From a virus, in the IMG/VR virus record IMGVR_UViG_3300007734_000758: a DNA stretch of 64,000 nt; one strand, written 5' to 3'. The notes below the pieces were generated by a model. That model ran no database searches. It was not told where the DNA came from and was given only the letters and a program-made list of their open reading frames with translations. Below are positions 57,561-63,940 of this stretch, piece by piece. The position numbers and the translations under genes are program-made. Position 1 is the stretch's first letter, and each line of letters starts with the position of its first letter.

Positions 57561-57601
57561 ATATTTGTCTCCTATAAGTTTATGTCAAAGAACCTACCTA
57601 G

Positions 57602-57687
57602 TACCTCGGGCCGGAGTCGAGCCGGCACGGACATCAATGTCCACAGGATTTTAAGTCCGGCGTGTCTACCAATTCCACCACCGAGGC
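57602..57687 (-). tRNA. tRNA-Leu (anticodon UAA), CCA not encoded
   Basis: GCCTCGG/CCGAGGT acceptor, A73, GGAATTGGTAGAC D-loop, CT-TAA-AA loop, long variable arm. Atypical features: C at position 54 and one anticodon-stem mismatch. Confidence 0.85.
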
Positions 57688-57763: not shown

Positions 57764-57865
57764 TAGTCAGGACAGGATTCGAACCTGTAGTGTTTAGGCT
57801 AACATAATACTTCGCAGAGGCCCTTCATACGATATTATTGCGTCTTCCGTTTCCGCCACCTGACT
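57764..57865 (-). ncRNA. tRNA-like shell element 1 (51-nt cargo)
   Basis: AGTCAGGTGGCGGAAACGGAAGACGC-[57789-57839]-ACAGGTTCGAATCCTGTCCTGACTA. Confidence 0.8.
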
Positions 57866-57944
57866 ATATTAAGAACTTTTTTCTTTCTAACTAAGGAATC
57901 CGGTAACTTTTTTTACATGCCCTAGAATCCTTGATTGATCGTAC

Positions 57945-57996
57945 TATAACTTATTGAGAATCAATGCGTTATAACTTATTGAGAATCAATGGGTTA
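57945..57996. promoter_or_regulatory. Tandem 25-bp-period repeat with IHF-consensus sites
   Basis: TATAACTTATTGAGAATCAATG(C/G)GTTA twice; contains WATCAANNNNTTR. Confidence 0.6.
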
Positions 57997-58007
57997 ACTA
58001 CGCCTAT

Positions 58008-58086
58008 AGAACCCCGATAAGCCCTTATTCTGGACTACCGAATATCAAAACCCGCGGACTCTAAACGGCTTTGATATCGGGGTTCT
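58008..58086. repeat. Hairpin element B (same arms as 45677-45757)
   Basis: AGAACCCCGATA at 58008-58019 and TATCGGGGTTCT at 58075-58086; unrelated 55-nt interior. Confidence 0.8.
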
Positions 58087-58093
58087 TTGATAC

Positions 58094-58270
58094 CTACCGG
58101 TTTATGTTATGATATAGTGCCCAACCAAATCCTAAGGACCAAACCATACTCAGAAACACGGGAAGGAACTTCACTCCTTCAAATATAGTAACCAAGCCAA
58201 CCAGTACAATAACAGATCCTAAAATCCAACAAGCAATTGCAAAACGTATCAATGCCATTTCTTTATACAT
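58094..58270 (-). CDS. Two-TM small protein (58 aa; not in track)
   Basis: MYKEMALIRFAIACWILGSVIVLVGLVTIFEGVKFLPVFLSMVWSLGFGWALYHNINR*. Confidence 0.55.
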   Translation of the reverse strand: MYKEMALIRFAIACWILGSVIVLVGLVTIFEGVKFLPVFLSMVWSLGFGWALYHNINR

Positions 58271-58277
58271 TTACAGG

Positions 58278-58514
58278 TTAAAATCGAGAAGCAACTGTAC
58301 GGATAATATCCTCTTCAGATACAGTTAAGCGATCACGGCGGTTTAACCGGGCCAACACTTCGCCCCATTCCGTATCAACATTATCACGTGCAGGAAAAAC
58401 AAAACCCATAGCGGTCAGTAATTCGACCAACTCAGTTATCTCCTCCATGTCACATTCTCCTACGAATTCGGCCGGAGAAATTTCTAAATCAATGTCTGGA
58501 TAAAAACGTGCCAT
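58278..58514 (-). CDS. Hypothetical early protein
   Basis: 78 aa; host-type promoter at 58538-58569. Confidence 0.6.
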   Translation of the reverse strand: MARFYPDIDLEISPAEFVGECDMEEITELVELLTAMGFVFPARDNVDTEWGEVLARLNRRDRLTVSEEDIIRTVASRF

Positions 58515-58580
58515 AATATTATATCAATTGGTTTATTTAAAGATAAGTAAATAATTAGTGACTAACAAAGGCAAATGCAA

Positions 58581-58673
58581 CTAAATTCTAGTACTTAATA
58601 TATGTACTAATACCGTTAAGTAACAAACGACGATTACCGTACCGATAATGATATAGATCGTATTCCGTTTCAT
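58581..58673 (-). CDS. Single-TM micropeptide (30 aa)
   Basis: MKRNTIYIIIGTVIVVCYLTVLVHILSTRI*; start coupled to the upstream stop. Confidence 0.4.
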   Translation of the reverse strand: MKRNTIYIIIGTVIVVCYLTVLVHILSTRI

Positions 58674-58978
58674 ACTAAAATTATTTGATAAATTAATGTA
58701 TACACCGAATTCTCGGTATGAAATATGTATTTGTTCTGTTCCGGGAAATGTTCTATTTGAGTAATAACGGTAGTAAGCCATGTAAATTCAAATCGATGCG
58801 GGTCTACTATAATAGAGTGGCCTATAGAAGGAAGGGGATGTAAGTCCATTTCTCCACCGCTCTCATCCCACTCTACAAAGCCAATACGACCTGTATGAGA
58901 CAAGCCGTCCCGTTCTCTTGTCAGTGTTCCGTGCAACCGTTGTGTTACGGATATTTTAGGTTGTGTTCCTGGTATCAT
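58670..58978 (-). CDS. Hypothetical early protein
   Basis: WLTTVITQI...FHTENSVY pattern seen in small phage proteins. Confidence 0.6.
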   Translation of the reverse strand: MIPGTQPKISVTQRLHGTLTRERDGLSHTGRIGFVEWDESGGEMDLHPLPSIGHSIIVDPHRFEFTWLTTVITQIEHFPEQNKYIFHTENSVYTLIYQIILV

Positions 58979-58981
58979 GCT

Positions 58982-59167
58982 TTATATATGCCCCCTCTTT
59001 TTGCCATCCGGACTGCCTTCTACCGATGCATACCGCTCTATAAGGAACTTCTCCTTAGCAATATATCGAAACCCACGATAGCTTTCCATAAGGCGAAACG
59101 CAGCCGCAACCCGATCAAGGTTCTCATTAAGGTATTCATCGAATCGTATCTTAGCTTGTTTTGGCAT
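58982..59167 (-). CDS. Hypothetical early protein
   Basis: 61 aa; host-type promoter at 59191-59222. Confidence 0.55.
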   Translation of the reverse strand: MPKQAKIRFDEYLNENLDRVAAAFRLMESYRGFRYIAKEKFLIERYASVEGSPDGKKRGHI

Positions 59168-59261
59168 ATCTTTTATCTCTTTATTATACTTAAATCTAGG
59201 TATTAATCACACAATAAACAAATCGATTTGTAACTATTTTCATCTTTATTATACTGTTCTT

Positions 59262-59551
59262 TGGTGGTATTGGGTGGTATTGGTATTGGGTAGTGTTGGT
59301 ATTGGGTGGTATTATTCTAGAGTGGTATTGTACTTGGGTAGTATTGGGTAGTATTGGTATTAACAATATTGGGAGGTACCGGTTCTATAGAAGAAAGTTG
59401 ATGTTTCATATACAGACTCATATAGCCACCCTCCCAAGCCCTACCTGGGTATAGGTACCCTAAAAGGGGTATACTCCCCCTAAGGGGGTGTTTTGGGTAG
59501 TTTTGGGGTAGTATACGGGGGTATACGGGGGCATGTGCCTATATAGGTAGG
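59262..59551. repeat. Strand-asymmetric G/T-rich non-coding repeat with G-tracts
   Basis: About 10-12 GTATTG(G)-like units at 59262-59375; five G3-G5 runs at 59484-59531. Confidence 0.8.
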
Positions 59552-61582
59552 TTACACCCATTCCACTATTTGGTCCACCATTTGGTTTTCATTGATAGTC
59601 CTAACCAAATGTCCCATGTCGGAGGGTTGGATCAGATGGGCACTGTCACCATACATCCTTTCGAAGCCGTGGTGCATCTCATCACGGTCCGCGATATAGT
59701 AACTCAGTACACTTATACCACTACTCTTTAAAGCACGTACTGTCTGAGCAGTATGACGCCATGCAGATTCATCACCATAGTGAGGGAAGCCTTGTACACT
59801 ATAACAGGGTTCTCCATCCGAGAAGTTAATGAAGAGTGACTTACGTCCCCGGGCACGTTTCTGTATCCAATTACTCAGTGCATTAAAGCATAATCCTTCT
59901 GGTGTACTTGAATTAGGTTCGAATGCTGAGAACATTGTACGGAAATGGTTTAGAGTATGACGCTTGCTATCGTACATGATAATCACTGCTGGGTATTTAC
60001 CGGCATCGATACGTACATCGATAGTGAGATGTATATTCTTTGCTAGTGCACATCCCTTTGCTAATGCTGAGGTGAATCGTAGTGTCTCTCTCCATTTTGT
60101 TCCATCCATTGATCCGGATGCATCTAGTGATATATGAATATAGGAGTCGGGGTATCGTTCGATACGGGTACGGTAAAAGATATCTTCTACTGTACTGGCG
60201 TACGCTATCCGGCGTGGATCAATCTTTCCCCGATTCAATCGGTTATACTCTAGGGTACGTTCTTCGGCTCGGGTACGTAACTGTTTGCTTATGCGGCTAC
60301 CATATCCGAATCCACTATCGATGATCTCAGTGTAGAGATCCGTTCTCCAATTGTTGTCTCGGTGGAATGCGAAGAAACCACGAAGGCCGTCCGGGAGTCC
60401 ATTCAATTGACGCTTACCACTTTCATCCCATAATTTGCTAGGGGTGAGGTTTTCCAGTAGCAGTACTGTTACTCCCTTAAAGGTTCCTCCCGCATCTGTT
60501 GTCGACAGTATGTCTACGTTCTCAGTCATTGCCTGCATGGCCCTACTCTCACCCTTAGATAATTTCGACTTCTTTATATCACCCTGTAGGGCGGTCATCA
60601 TCTCCCTTACTGCTTTGTCGATACGTTTTTCCATGGAAGGACTGAACTGTTCACCCTCAGAAAGCGACTCGCCGGATTCGGTTTCCTCTCCTTCAGATCC
60701 ATCACCGGTATCGGAAGGTTCACCCTCACCCGTACCAGCTTCTGACGCTTGCTCTTTACCATCCGCTTCCTTCTCGAAGACCGGTTCCTGTACAGGTAGA
60801 TTAGCTACAATCTCTCCCCATACCTGTATTGCTAATACTGCTACATCTGTGCTACTCTTCAAGCGATCGATATTCTGTAGATCGATCATACTAAAGATAC
60901 GTTCTAGTCCCGGTAATGCCTTTGGATCACTGTCCGGATTAACCATACTGAGTATATGGAAGAGGTAGTTTTCCGCCTTTACTCCACGATATCGCACATC
61001 GCGGATAGCCTTCGTGGTAGTGGCATTGATAAAGTACTCCTCATATAATGCATCGTAATAACCACAATAACCAGGTGCAGTGTTACGTACATATCGATCG
61101 ATGCGACGGTCTTCAATGATATTGATTAGGTTCTTGATATTGCATGCTGTACCATATGGGTCATTTTCCGGCTTAGCTTCCCCGGGCAATAGATTGTATG
61201 CCTCACGGATAGCAGGATAGGGATCTGTAGTTCCATTATACGTATTGTGTATGCTCATGATATAGGGCAATACCTTAAAGTCCGTCAGCACAATATGGGA
61301 TGCTTCGTGTAATGCTAACCCTACGTTAATATCAAACTTGCCCGCGTCACGGTTAGCAGATATCACGATCCGTTCACCATCAGTATATGAATCACCTGAG
61401 GTAGCAAACTGTACAGTTATCTGTTTACCTGTTAATATGTTCACGAAGTTCGATATCACATTACGGTACTTGATAAGACCGATGATATCCTGTCCGGACT
61501 CTTCCATACGGTCGACATCATACTCGAACTGATCGATATCGAGCCAATAGGATGAGTGCAATTGCTTGAAATTCTTTGCCAT
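59552..61582 (-). CDS. CobT-like protein: HExxH domain, acidic linker and VWA domain
   Basis: LHEASH, NIIEDRRID, GKID, DASGSM MIDAS, STPE, FSDGEP. Confidence 0.85.
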   Translation of the reverse strand: MAKNFKQLHSSYWLDIDQFEYDVDRMEESGQDIIGLIKYRNVISNFVNILTGKQITVQFATSGDSYTDGERIVISANRDAGKFDINVGLALHEASHIVLTDFKVLPYIMSIHNTYNGTTDPYPAIREAYNLLPGEAKPENDPYGTACNIKNLINIIEDRRIDRYVRNTAPGYCGYYDALYEEYFINATTTKAIRDVRYRGVKAENYLFHILSMVNPDSDPKALPGLERIFSMIDLQNIDRLKSSTDVAVLAIQVWGEIVANLPVQEPVFEKEADGKEQASEAGTGEGEPSDTGDGSEGEETESGESLSEGEQFSPSMEKRIDKAVREMMTALQGDIKKSKLSKGESRAMQAMTENVDILSTTDAGGTFKGVTVLLLENLTPSKLWDESGKRQLNGLPDGLRGFFAFHRDNNWRTDLYTEIIDSGFGYGSRISKQLRTRAEERTLEYNRLNRGKIDPRRIAYASTVEDIFYRTRIERYPDSYIHISLDASGSMDGTKWRETLRFTSALAKGCALAKNIHLTIDVRIDAGKYPAVIIMYDSKRHTLNHFRTMFSAFEPNSSTPEGLCFNALSNWIQKRARGRKSLFINFSDGEPCYSVQGFPHYGDESAWRHTAQTVRALKSSGISVLSYYIADRDEMHHGFERMYGDSAHLIQPSDMGHLVRTINENQMVDQIVEWV

Positions 61583-61593
61583 GTTTGGTTGGT

Positions 61594-61815
61594 TTATTCG
61601 GTTACTATTAGGGTACTGACTTCACACTGCAATGCTCGGTAGGTGTCCGGCTTAAGCCATTCACTGATACGATAGGCCGGGGTATATTCGATACCATCCG
61701 ACAGGATTACATTATGGGGACATGCAGCAATCATCAGGACTGCTCCCATTCCCATATTCGGCCGACGTATCAGCCAATCGCATACCTCTTGTGTGGGCAT
61801 TAATGATTCTTTCAT
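61594..61815 (-). CDS. Hypothetical protein
   Basis: 73 aa. Confidence 0.45.
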   Translation of the reverse strand: MKESLMPTQEVCDWLIRRPNMGMGAVLMIAACPHNVILSDGIEYTPAYRISEWLKPDTYRALQCEVSTLIVTE

Positions 61816-61825
61816 TCGATCTAGG

Positions 61826-62254
61826 TTAGGCTTTTACCAATTTATACTTTACACCATCGATTTCTACTATCTTATTTTCACAATACTTTGATCGGTTGTC
61901 TTCAATGTAACCATAGGAATTTTCAAAATAGATTTCATTTCCATTGGAATCATATTCTCTCTTCCACCAGTAACCATTGGAATATTCAAAATAGATTTCA
62001 TTTCCATTGGAATCATATTCACTCTTCCACCAATAACCATTGGAATTTTCAAAATAGATTTCATTTCCATTGGAATCGAATTTTTTCTTTTTCCAGTAAC
62101 CATTGGAATCTTCACGATAAATTTGATTTCCATTGGAATCGTATTCCCACTTTCCCCAATAACCATTGGAATTTTCAAAATAGATTTTATTTCCATTCTT
62201 ATCTTTGATTTCAAACGGAAAGTCTTTGATTTTAAGTTGCTGTGCGATTGTCAT
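61826..62254 (-). CDS. Repeat protein (about 5 x 21-aa YWxKxEYDSNGNEIYFENSNG; DUF2963/YD-like)
   Basis: 63-bp tandem repeats at about 61910-62200. Confidence 0.75.
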   Translation of the reverse strand: MTIAQQLKIKDFPFEIKDKNGNKIYFENSNGYWGKWEYDSNGNQIYREDSNGYWKKKKFDSNGNEIYFENSNGYWWKSEYDSNGNEIYFEYSNGYWWKREYDSNGNEIYFENSYGYIEDNRSKYCENKIVEIDGVKYKLVKA

Positions 62255-62255
62255 A

Positions 62256-62498
62256 TTATCCTAATATACGTTTTGCAATAGTGAATGAATACTCAAGATC
62301 GATCGGTTTCAAACCGCGGCCTTTTGAATAATGCTGGGTGGATTGGTGGTACACTTCACCATTATGGACCATGAACACGAAGCTACCGGTTACATGCCTC
62401 CCGGCTTTTACATCGATCATTACTAATGAATCTGAGACGATCTCTGCCTTATAGGACACGGTCTCTGACATCTGGTTGGCTCCGGTTAATTTCCTCAT
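62256..62498 (-). CDS. Hypothetical early protein
   Basis: 80 aa; host-type promoter at 62520-62551. Confidence 0.5.
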   Translation of the reverse strand: MRKLTGANQMSETVSYKAEIVSDSLVMIDVKAGRHVTGSFVFMVHNGEVYHQSTQHYSKGRGLKPIDLEYSFTIAKRILG

Positions 62499-62587
62499 CT
62501 TTTATCTTTTTATTATACTTAAATCTAGTAAATAAGATTGATACTTACAAGGAAATCGGTAACTTTTTTTCAGGAGATTTGTAAGGT

Positions 62588-62631
62588 ATTGATTCTCAAT
62601 AAGTTATAACTTATTAAGTTTCAAGCCGTTA
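62588..62631. promoter_or_regulatory. Inverted plus degenerate direct copy of the 57945 repeat (IHF-like)
   Basis: ATTGATTCTCAATAAGTTATA is the exact 21-nt reverse complement; forms the palindrome AATAAGTTATAACTTATT. Confidence 0.6.
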
Positions 62632-62717
62632 TATAACGTATTCCTTGAGTCCTAGGGCTTAAAGGAGTAAAGGGTGATACACTATTGTACCACCCTATAT
62701 ATAGGGGTCCGACCCTA

Positions 62718-62975
62718 TTAGGCTTCAACCAGCTCAGGCGCTTCGGCCACGACTGCTGGGGCAGCTTTGCTCAACTGAGCATCGATCTTATCCATCGCAA
62801 AACGACGCTGCTTGCCTGTACTTACAGTATAACGTACATACTGTTTGGATTGGAGTGCGAGACGCAATTGTACCGGGCGAATCTTATCGGTCATCTCGGT
62901 GCCGGTTTCTACATCAAAACCACGGAGTTCACCATTGGTAAATTCGGGACGTACAAAGATTTCATTCTTACTCAT
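62718..62975 (-). CDS. Hypothetical early protein
   Basis: 85 aa; host-type promoter at 63014-63045. Confidence 0.6.
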   Translation of the reverse strand: MSKNEIFVRPEFTNGELRGFDVETGTEMTDKIRPVQLRLALQSKQYVRYTVSTGKQRRFAMDKIDAQLSKAAPAVVAEAPELVEA

Positions 62976-63013
62976 AACTGTTAATTGTTTAATTGTTTAA
63001 TTAATATAATACT

Positions 63014-63045
63014 TAAAGCTAAGGAATAGATTTGAAACTACCAAA
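63014..63045 (-). promoter_or_regulatory. Bacteroidota-type early promoter (representative copy)
   Basis: TTTG-N20-TAGCTTTA. Same 20-nt spacing at 3979-4010, 15803-15834, 43797-43828, 44603-44634, 50188-50219, 51871-51902, 56611-56642, 57694-57725, 58538-58569, 59191-59222 and 62520-62551. Confidence 0.8.
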
Positions 63046-63066
63046 TCGATCTGTAACTTTTTTTTG

Positions 63067-63216
63067 TAGTCAGGACAGGATTCGAACCTGTATTAGTATT
63101 ATAGAGACTCTTCACTAACCTGGCTTAACTAAGGGTAGAATAACGAAACATGCGGTTTACATTCTTTGCCTTGCTATCTCTGCGCCCAGTGCGTCTACCA
63201 ATTCCGCCACCTGACT
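63067..63216 (-). ncRNA. tRNA-like shell element 2 (99-nt cargo)
   Basis: AGTCAGGTGGCGGAATTGGTAGACGC-[63092-63190]-ACAGGTTCGAATCCTGTCCTGACTA. Confidence 0.82.
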
Positions 63217-63297
63217 AAGTAGTGGAGCGTCACTTATTACTAAGTTATCCACTTCGGTTACATTATCTTATGATAAGAGGTTTTACCGAGCCCAAGG

Positions 63298-63411
63298 TAG
63301 TCAAGACAGGATTCGAACCTGTAATGCATATTATCTAACTCCCAAGGACTACTCGCCCATGGTAAGTAATGCACTTATAGTCTCAGCGTCTACCAATTCC
63401 GCCACCTGACT
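63298..63411 (-). ncRNA. tRNA-like shell element 3 (63-nt cargo)
   Basis: Same shell with one C-to-T change giving a G-U pair in the acceptor stem; cargo 63323-63385. Confidence 0.82.
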
Positions 63412-63550
63412 ATATTTTATTTTTAAAATATTTTATTAAGCCTAAACATTTAATAACATAATATTCTACAATAATCCATCTTTTAAGTTTAACCCACCAA
63501 GGGTCTTTCTTCATATCATCTAATATTCTTTGAAAAACTTTACTTCTCAT
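63410..63550 (-). CDS. Small basic protein (46 aa; not in track) between shell elements 4 and 3
   Basis: MRSKVFQRILDDMKKDPWWVKLKRWIIVEYYVIKCLGLIKYFKNKI*; A-rich leader; TAG stop overlaps the first 2 nt of element 3. Confidence 0.6.
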   Translation of the reverse strand: MRSKVFQRILDDMKKDPWWVKLKRWIIVEYYVIKCLGLIKYFKNKI

Positions 63551-63565
63551 AACTTTTATTTTTAG

Positions 63566-63726
63566 TAGTCAGGACAGGATTCGAACCTGTATGGTGGACA
63601 TTTTTCTTTATTACAGAAGGTCTCATGTTAACTAAACCCCATTGCGTGGAACTGTCCCATCTCGGCCATCGATGTTTTAACCTTAAAACCAACAAGTATG
63701 CGTCTAACCAATTCCGCCACCTGACT
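63566..63726 (-). ncRNA. tRNA-like shell element 4 (109-nt cargo)
   Basis: Same shell with one extra T in the D-loop; cargo 63591-63699. Confidence 0.82.
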
Positions 63727-63736
63727 ATTTGTTTGT

Positions 63737-63940
63737 TTAACTATGAAAAGCTTGCTCAGATATGTACATGTAAATGTAGTCTTCTTCCTCATTTTCATCT
63801 AAAGAAGACTCATACTCGTTCTCTAGACATTCTGCCATTGCACTTAGAGCAGATTCTTCAGTTGCGTAGATTCCATAAATTTCTCCAGATTCTGGCGTCC
63901 CTTGATTCGTGTGGTGTACCACGTATACTTTTGCTTCCAT
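63737..63940 (-). CDS. Small acidic hypothetical protein
   Basis: KVYVV...IYGIYATEESA; ends 10 nt before element 4. Confidence 0.6.
   Translation of the reverse strand: MEAKVYVVHHTNQGTPESGEIYGIYATEESALSAMAECLENEYESSLDENEEEDYIYMYISEQAFHS

What the first reader, a model, noticed from the sequence alone, without database searches (positions are those of the whole stretch)
57764..63726. Family of tRNA-shell RNAs: fixed tRNA-Leu-like acceptor, D and T arms carrying variable structured cargo in place of an anticodon arm
Seen: four - strand elements (57764-57865, 63067-63216, 63298-63411, 63566-63726) share 5' AGTCAGG-TG-GCGGAATTGGTAGACGC and 3' ACAGG-TTCGAAT-CCTGT-CCTGACT-A. That gives a 7-bp acceptor stem, a Leu-type D-arm, a perfect T-arm and A73, followed by C but never CCA. 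The middles are 51, 99, 63 and 109 nt, unrelated in sequence, and I see no 7-nt anticodon loop on a 5-bp stem in any of them. Each can still fold by eye (element 1 ATAATAT/GTATTAT; element 2 CTGG/CCAG, AGAATG/TATTCT, GTTAGT/ACTAAT; element 3 AGTGCAT/ATGCATT or GACTA/TAGTC; element 4 GTTTTA/TAAAAC, GGACA/TGTCC). Shell differences preserve structure (D-loop changes, one G-C to G-U), which points to selection at the RNA level. Established: RNase P, 3'-processing nucleases and the CCA-adding enzyme read the acceptor/T-arm/elbow; bacterial LeuRS uses A73 and tertiary shape rather than the anticodon; engineered tRNA scaffolds stabilise foreign RNA inserted at this position. Inference: a natural tRNA-scaffold system producing stable, possibly leucylated, non-decoding RNAs. 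They could be decoys for anticodon nucleases or tRNA-sensing defences, or carriers of diverse antisense, guide or aptamer cargo. I know of no named family matching this, but could not search.
Basis: partly seen in the sequence, partly recalled or inferred. Interest (0 to 1): 0.92.

Follow-up and report, generated by a model that had tools for sequence, protein, structure and literature searches.

The report
Phage tRNA shells punctuating RNA cassettes
A large aquatic phage carries four genes that keep the top half of a leucine tRNA but cannot read codons; in hundreds of uncultured phage sequences these constant shells both wrap and separate small swappable folded RNAs and mini-genes, an apparently uncatalogued modular RNA library whose job is unknown.

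Summary
Observation confirmed. The four elements are exactly as described and belong to a large phage family: at least 659 distinct copies from capped searches, 1-17 per genome, no Rfam family beyond weak tRNA hits. The scan reported this family before on other DNA (e1-5376318, e1-5405920, e1-5468763).

Shells are selected as RNA (G-U 194 vs A-C 13) and share the end signals of the phages' real tRNAs. Only 8/323 have an anticodon arm, and they are not introns. Middles form about 390 families with conserved folds and move between phages.

New here: (1) the 81-nt gap between elements 3 and 2 is itself a covarying RNA, bounded interchangeably by shells, real tRNAs or a promoter; (2) one cargo occurs inside shells (10 copies) and free (3); (3) shell-to-shell gaps mostly hold one mini-gene or one folded RNA. 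So the shell is scaffold, processing mark and probably recombination handle of a cassette array.

Leucylation is plausible (full identity set in all four, 52% of family) but probably dispensable. No antisense targets or dedicated partner protein found. Transcription, processing and cargo function are not shown. Closest precedent: T4 RNAC.

The parts
63737..63940 (-). 67-aa ORF that stops 10 nt before element 4; upstream cassette
   Evidence: weak DUF7336 hit below cut-off
63566..63726 (-). Element 4: tRNA-Leu shell with 109-nt multibranch cargo
   Evidence: homolog L313:174-333 with three compensatory pair changes and a palindromic loop kept palindromic
63410..63550 (-). 46-aa ORF cassette; ATG 15 nt after element 4, and its TAG stop is U-1/A1/G2 of element 3
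   Evidence: homologs follow unrelated shells in L042 and L046; pattern general
63298..63411 (-). Element 3: shell (one G-U in the acceptor stem) with 63-nt cargo
   Evidence: no cargo homolog in the sample
63217..63297 (-). 81-nt conserved two-hairpin RNA cassette that fills the gap exactly from C74 of element 3 to position -1 of element 2
   Evidence: 18 copies; 5 pairs with double changes, 100% of cells paired, 0/500 shuffles for cells paired
63067..63216 (-). Element 2: shell with 99-nt cargo
   Evidence: missed by both Rfam and ARAGORN
63008..63065 (-). Repeated phage promoter (A-run GTTAC box ... TAnnTTTA AGTAT) starting right after element 2; Bacteroidota-type -7 box
   Evidence: three copies in the window; same box in Flavobacterium phage immuto; -7 consensus from own knowledge
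57866..57914 (-). Upstream promoter box fused to element 1, apparently truncated before its -7 element
   Evidence: truncation is inference
57764..57865 (-). Element 1: shell with variant D loop and 51-nt cargo (long irregular anticodon-position stem plus short variable arm)
57602..57687 (-). Genuine tRNA-Leu(UAA), also ending A73-C without CCA; its anticodon arm matches the middle of shell L329

Best explanation
The elements are the constant parts of a modular cassette array of small RNAs and mini-genes in large phages of aquatic Bacteroidota. Step 1 (inferred): the array is co-transcribed with the tRNA cluster. Step 2 (inferred from conserved signals): host RNase P cuts at +1 of each shell and host 3' nucleases trim to C74 before CCA completion, as for the phage's real tRNAs. 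This frees two products: shell-wrapped cargo RNAs, and the cassettes lying between shells. Step 3 (plausible, not required): about half the shells can be leucylated, which would protect the 3' end; they cannot decode. Step 4 (movement shown, mechanism inferred): the near-identical 25-nt shell halves are handles for ordinary phage recombination, so cargos and spacers are swapped between phages, real tRNA middles get captured, and the shell sequence is homogenised. Step 5 (most likely, unshown): the cargos are autonomous folded RNAs that act by shape, binding host proteins such as defence or translation factors during takeover, and their diversity tracks a phage-host arms race.
For: RNA-strand selection on shell stems, G-U 194 vs A-C 13; Levitt pair A15-U48 355 and G15-C48 19. 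Same end signals as genuine tRNAs: U-1 82% vs 69%, C74 97% vs 93%. All 786 shell/tRNA pairs within 2 kb lie on the same strand. Non-decoding: canonical arm in 8/323 vs 373/453. Cargo folds conserved: 53/61 double changes keep pairing vs 32.0+-3.7 expected; pseudoknots 31 vs 18.1+-2.3, one with covariation. Shuffling: same cargo shares a flank in only 33-36 of 311 pairs. Cargo autonomy: cargo K lies inside 10 shells, free with its own closing stem in 3, and behind a half shell in 1. Punctuation: the window's 81-nt spacer is bounded by shells, tRNA-Ser, tRNA-Arg or a promoter; 56/196 spacers are single ORFs (5.3 expected) and the non-ORF spacers fold at mean z -1.23. RecA-like genes in 11/16 genomes, integrase 1/16 (broken), reverse transcriptase 0/16.
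Against: No direct evidence of transcription, cleavage, CCA addition or charging. No target or partner for any cargo. Three of the window's four cargos have no homolog in my sample, 298/392 cargo families are singletons and the mean folding signal is modest (z -0.77), so some cargos may be neutral. Loci were picked by exact shell patterns and pairing filters, which inflates apparent shell constancy. A promoter directly follows element 2 and another precedes the tRNA-Leu, so some shells punctuate nothing. Cutting at +1 would split the stop codon of 36/601 upstream ORFs, which is awkward for efficient processing.
Confidence: 0.55

Rival explanations
1. The shell is the active part: a leucylated or uncharged tRNA decoy that titrates host acceptor-end toxins, tRNA-sensing defences, LeuRS or EF-Tu. 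The middle is filler that only has to fold out of the way.
For: Full E. coli-type LeuRS identity set in 222/423 shells and all four here, vs 84/100 real tRNA-Leu and 5/566 other tRNAs. LeuRS charges variants lacking the anticodon and variable arms (PMC9976931). Copy number reaches 17. Second commonest discriminator is G73.
Against: Cargos keep sequence and fold across phages and one persists without any shell. Discriminators vary within 23/82 cargo families. The same cargo occurs with other acceptor stems. Some family members have lost the Leu-type D arm.
Confidence: 0.17
2. Shells are only processing marks and recombination handles (PeSL-like). The useful products are the spacer ORFs and RNAs, and most middles are hitch-hiking or selfish RNA modules with no host target.
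For: Exact bounding of spacer cassettes; interchange with real tRNAs; module shuffling; precedent of recombination between repeated regulatory cassettes in T4-type phages (PMC2839356).
Against: A minimal shell of about 70 nt would suffice, yet most carry conserved, covarying, sometimes pseudoknotted cargo. Several genomes hold one or two isolated shells.
Confidence: 0.15
3. Shells carry antisense or guide RNAs that pair with phage or host transcripts, like the RNase P-processed C4 RNA of P1/P7 and CI RNA of P4.
For: Precedent of RNase P-processed phage RNAs (PMC5499578); hypervariable middles.
Against: Longest antisense matches to the 64-kb window are 10-12 nt, no better than shuffles, and no convincing hit in other loci; almost none between middles and spacers. 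Conservation is by internal pairing.
Confidence: 0.07
4. The middles contain introns that are spliced out to give ordinary tRNAs, as proposed for Lak megaphage tRNAs.
For: Devoto et al. 2019 report introns in phage tRNAs (PMC6784885); a few shells are canonical tRNAs.
Against: An excision giving a canonical arm is possible in 2/214 long members vs 1.8+-1.1 in shuffles, and in 0/4 here. No intron family in Rfam scans. Many members are too short to hold an intron.
Confidence: 0.03
5. Decaying tRNA-Leu pseudogenes multiplied by recombination, with no function.
For: Derived from real tRNAs; half-shell and degenerate copies exist.
Against: Stem changes are pairing-preserving and strand-specific; cargo covariation; maintained across many diverged phages.
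Confidence: 0.03

Closest known systems
Phage T4 RNAC (species 1) and RNAD (species 2)
   Same: Phage RNAs in the tRNA cluster, function unknown (PMC9697503, PMC3014915). RNAC has paired ends, a perfect 5-bp/7-nt T arm and long hairpins in place of the tRNA middle.
   Different: Single copy, no Leu-type D arm, imperfect acceptor stem, and no family of interchangeable middles or cassette array that I could find described.
Bacterial class II tRNA-Leu (Rfam RF00005)
   Same: 7/5 acceptor-T branch, D arm with G13-A22, A15-U48, A20a, A73; same end signals. Some members are true Leu-UAA, Ile or Lys tRNAs in the same shell.
   Different: No anticodon arm in 315/323 families; middles of about 15-150 nt, unrelated to each other.
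PeSL regulatory cassettes of T4-type phages (PMC2839356)
   Same: Repeated short elements between small non-essential genes that mediate modular shuffling by recombination.
   Different: PeSLs are promoters plus stem-loops; these are tRNA-shaped RNAs that also enclose variable cargo. Recombination at the shells is inferred from mosaic patterns, not shown.
Engineered tRNA scaffolds and polycistronic tRNA-guide RNA arrays (own knowledge; papers not held)
   Same: Works like both: foreign RNA held at the anticodon position, and RNAs released from between tRNAs by host nucleases.
   Different: Natural, phage-encoded, hundreds of cargos; function untested.
C4 RNA of P1/P7 and CI RNA of P4
   Same: Phage small RNAs matured by host RNase P (PMC5499578).
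   Different: Those lack a T loop and act by antisense pairing; no antisense target and no Rfam C4 hit here.
Allo-tRNAs and polycistrons of irregular tRNAs (PMC5389517)
   Same: Arrays of irregular tRNAs, some charged but not used in translation, near toxin-antitoxin genes.
   Different: Those have 8/4 or 9/3 branches and anticodons; these are 7/5 without an anticodon.
Lak megaphage tRNA 'enigmatic introns' (PMC6784885)
   Same: Over-long phage tRNA genes with inserts; might be related misread cases (not tested).
   Different: No excision restores a tRNA here.
Integron attC cassette arrays (own knowledge)
   Same: Conserved inverted ends, variable middle, single-ORF cassettes in between.
   Different: No RYYYAAC/GTTRRRY cores, no intact integrase, tRNA tertiary elements conserved.

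Membership tests
Decoding tRNA (RF00005) | 7-bp acceptor, 5-bp T stem, D arm, tertiary core | tested here: met
Decoding tRNA (RF00005) | 5-bp anticodon stem with 7-nt loop, U33, R37 | tested here: not met
   0/4 here; 8/323 families vs 373/453 genuine tRNAs
LeuRS substrate | A73, U8-A14, A15-U48, G18G19, A20a | tested here: met
   4/4 here, 222/423 family; determinants from PMC9976931, defined in E. coli, not Bacteroidota
LeuRS substrate | Actual aminoacylation | not testable with these tools
   needs a charging assay
Intron-containing tRNA | Excision restores a canonical anticodon arm | tested here: not met
   2/214 vs 1.8 in shuffles; 0/4 here
tmRNA | G3-U70 alanine identity, stemless D loop, tag reading frame | tested here: not met
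   pair 3-70 is U-A in 512/529; D stem present; ARAGORN finds no tmRNA
Allo-tRNA / tRNA-Sec / tRNA-His | 8-bp or 9-bp acceptor stem | tested here: not met
   branch is 7/5; -1/73 is C-A or A-A in 73/541, and U-1 is also usual in real tRNAs
Bacterial Y RNA (YrlA) | Ends form the Ro-binding stem; neighbouring TROVE gene | tested here: not met
   ends form the acceptor stem; TROVE in 2/16 genomes; no Rfam hit; topology from own knowledge
C4/CI antisense RNAs | Complementary target in the phage | tested here: inconclusive
   none above chance in 64 kb; rest of genome and host not held
Integron attC array | Core sites and a cognate tyrosine recombinase | tested here: not met
   cores absent by inspection; PF00589 in 1/16, with stops
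Theta ribozymes (for the 81-nt spacer) | HDV-like nested double pseudoknot right after a tRNA 3' end | tested here: inconclusive
   position fits; covarying fold is two hairpins, not HDV-like; no Rfam hit; self-cleavage untested
T4 RNAC/RNAD | Sequence homology | tested here: not met
   no phage record in the INPHARED collection covers 80% of element 2; RNAC shares only the T-arm architecture
T4 RNAC/RNAD | Stable processed RNA in infected cells | not testable with these tools
   only assembled contigs were available

The most novel reading that the evidence does not exclude
These phages run a natural RNA display library: a constant tRNA-Leu top half recruits host enzymes to cut out, cap and stabilise hundreds of different folded RNAs, serves as the recombination handle that shuffles them, and the cargos are aptamer-like inhibitors of host defence or translation proteins, an RNA counterpart of anti-defence gene islands.
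Probability: 0.25. Interest if true: 0.93.

Novelty: new variant of a known kind. Interest (0 to 1): 0.74.

Why it matters
T4 RNAC and RNAD are still described as RNAs of unknown function. This family turns that single oddity into hundreds of precisely delimited natural variants that can be synthesised and screened. It suggests that phage tRNA clusters are also cassette arrays for small RNAs and mini-genes, read out by host tRNA-processing enzymes, which is what engineers built as tRNA scaffolds and tRNA-spaced guide arrays. The shells mark exact boundaries of many unannotated structured RNAs, a quick route to new RNA families. They also cause false tRNA calls: ARAGORN gave 99 calls on shells, most with arbitrary anticodons, including pyrrolysine, which can distort phage codon and recoding analyses.

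Tried and rejected
No whole genome is held for the window. Expression: only Logan contigs were offered; one true metatranscriptome holds relatives' shells and the 81-nt spacer, but on contigs up to 8 kb that may be DNA, with summed depths and no read ends, so it is no evidence either way. The literature searches run found no description of the family; subscription journals are not covered. A degenerate search for more homologs of element 4's cargo found none. Rfam scans of over 40 array loci gave only tRNA and one freshwater-1 hit. Partner proteins: Leu/Phe transferase 0/16, CCA enzyme 1/16, TROVE 2/16, integrase 1/16 (broken), reverse transcriptase 0/16; nothing RNA-related among the window proteins scanned. 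An 8-bp acceptor or TA-flanked mini-transposon reading was rejected because -1/73 pairing is not conserved and U-1 is generic. My idea that the acceptor carries Ile identity was not supported by the phages' own tRNA-Ile genes. CRISPR-like spacer capture from genes was not seen. The 20 hits in bacterial genomes are all MAG contigs, about half Bacteroidota; whether they are misbinned phage DNA was not resolved. The sigma-70 promoter scan was at chance level and does not suit this host type. The nearest cultured relative, Flavobacterium phage immuto, lacks this shell.
Full report
1. Observation. The four elements are present as described and are far beyond chance: 4 copies against 0 in 50 shuffles. 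ARAGORN sees only the real tRNA-Leu(UAA) at 57601-57687. Rfam gives three weak tRNA hits with the anticodon arm unaligned, and nothing else. The window is part of a large myovirus (tail sheath, baseplate, terminase, GroEL, SbcCD-like). Its tail sheath is closest to Flavobacterium phage immuto among cultured phages (53% identity), and it shares that phage's promoter box. A Bacteroidota host is therefore likely (inference).

2. Family. No cultured phage record matches a whole element. Only 20 stretches match among 185,579 prokaryotic genomes, all on MAG contigs.

3. The shell is selected as RNA and looks processed like a tRNA. Deviations in acceptor and T stems are G-U 194 times and A-C 13 times, an asymmetry expected only on the transcribed strand. 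The 15-48 tertiary pair switches from A-U (355) to G-C (19). U-1 and C74 occur in 82% and 97% of shells and in 69% and 93% of real tRNAs from the same loci; CCA is rare in both. All 786 shell/tRNA pairs within 2 kb are co-oriented. Caveat: loci were chosen by shell sequence and filtered for pairing. Even so, 36 non-canonical tRNA-like elements with other acceptors turned up.

4. Not decoders, not introns. A canonical anticodon arm is present in 8 of 323 families against 373 of 453 real tRNAs. An excision that would restore one exists in 2 of 214 long members, as in shuffles (1.8), and in none of the four here. The canonical exceptions include real tRNA middles captured in the shell: the Ile-UAU, Ile-GAU and Leu-UAA arms match those of ordinary phage tRNAs, including this window's own tRNA-Leu.

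5. Leucine identity. By the E. coli rules (PMC9976931) all four elements and 222/423 family members carry the full set, against 84/100 real tRNA-Leu and 5/566 others. But 23/82 cargo families mix discriminators and some cargos appear with other acceptor stems. Charging is plausible and probably accessory.

6. Cargo. The 558 middles fall into 392 families, 298 of them singletons. Members of one family share a flank in only about 11% of pairs, so they move between positions and phages. Where homologs exist, 53 of 61 double changes keep pairing against 32 expected (events counted once per family, relatedness not modelled). Pseudoknots are enriched and one covaries. Element 4 and its homolog differ by three compensatory pairs. 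No middle has antisense matches above chance. One cargo, K, lies inside 10 shells, free with its own closing helix in three phages, and behind an orphan 5' half shell in one. That cargo is therefore an autonomous RNA, and the shell is one of two ways to deliver it.

7. Punctuation. The 81 nt between elements 3 and 2 is a conserved two-hairpin RNA with five covarying pairs. Its 18 copies (some from near-identical phages) start at C74 of an upstream shell or tRNA-Arg, or after a promoter, and end at -1 of a shell or tRNA-Ser, while the neighbouring cargos differ between unrelated phages. Of 196 shell-to-shell gaps, 56 are single ORFs (5.3 expected) and the non-ORF ones fold better than shuffles. 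An ATG lies 8-25 nt after the shell in 151/599 cases, and upstream stops cluster 7-15 nt before it or overlap its first bases. The window's 46-aa ORF is such a cassette. The 17-copy genome shows the alternation plainly.

8. Mechanism. Shown: anatomy, RNA-level selection, absence of decoding capacity, modular exchange, autonomy of one cargo. Inferred from established tRNA processing: RNase P and 3' nucleases release both product types. Inferred: general recombination at the 25-nt halves does the shuffling, since RecA-like genes occur in 11/16 genomes while integrase and reverse transcriptase are essentially absent, as for PeSL cassettes (PMC2839356). No dedicated partner protein was found, so partners are probably host factors. 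Cargo acting by shape on host defence or translation proteins is my best guess for purpose and has no direct support; I put that step alone at about one in three.

9. Comparison and novelty. It works like an engineered tRNA scaffold and a tRNA-spaced RNA array at once. It fails defining tests for decoding tRNA, intron-containing tRNA, tmRNA, allo-tRNA, Y RNA and attC. The nearest natural kind is T4 RNAC, a tRNA-ended phage RNA of unknown function, so I rate it a new variant of a known kind. The cassette-array logic may be a category of its own if processing and cargo function are shown. No description was found in the searchable literature.

10. Verdict. Real, widespread, uncatalogued, with a well-supported architecture and an open function. 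Interest 0.74.

Noticed in passing
L252:3550-3660, L483 array and 118 distinct copies in viral contigs: A second fixed RNA scaffold with variable insert (24-107 nt): closing stem, a hairpin with loop TTGAGA, and a 3' hairpin with complementary loop TTCTCA (likely loop-loop kiss). Often sits directly before a tRNA shell. Its first hairpin resembles a stretch of T4 RNAD. No Rfam hit in the loci scanned.
   Followed up: partly
L326:1253-1315: Rfam freshwater-1 RNA (RF02979) lies inside a shell array, which gives that orphan motif a genomic context.
   Followed up: no
upstream of at least 19 shells, e.g. L038, L065, L030; inside shell L176: Recurrent hairpin TGACAGCTCGGAAAGACGAGC just before shells and tRNAs; once found within a cargo.
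   Followed up: partly
L361:766-852 (MW353175.1 20246-20331): The annotated 'tRNA-Cys' of cultured Flavobacterium phage immuto is a non-canonical tRNA-like RNA with possible G-1/C73 pairing; the gaps between its tRNAs look non-coding, and one upstream spacer has a weak match in L005. A lab-accessible model.
   Followed up: partly
window 63566-63726 and L313:174-333: A 6-nt palindromic loop stays palindromic by a double change (GTTAAC to GTGCAC), hinting at kissing-loop dimerisation.
   Followed up: no
14 of 392 cargo families, e.g. L177:2100, L024:484: An extra T-loop motif inside the middle or D arm (14 vs 0.45 expected); some D loops hold 20-40 nt inserts, a second cargo site.
   Followed up: no
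window 63410-63412 and 36 of 601 shells: The stop codon of the upstream ORF is U-1/A1/G2 of the shell, so RNase P cleavage would leave a non-stop mRNA.
   Followed up: partly
window 59552-61582 (-): 676-aa protein weakly similar to CobT-like (vWA) subunits, between elements 1 and 2.
   Followed up: no
window 59240-59520: Strongly skewed non-coding stretch with short tandem repeats (purine-poor on the minus strand) and G/C-run hairpins; possible origin or terminal region.
   Followed up: no
window 61826-62254 (-): 142-aa ORF built of near-identical internal repeats (YFENSNG-type).
   Followed up: no
window 57925-58060: Duplicated ATTGATTCTCAATAAGTTATA motif and inverted repeats upstream of element 1, with a similar motif near 62600; replaced by other sequence in a related phage.
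   Followed up: no
G012:153725-156090: A TROVE (Ro60-like) gene lies about 1.6 kb from a shell in one genome.
   Followed up: no
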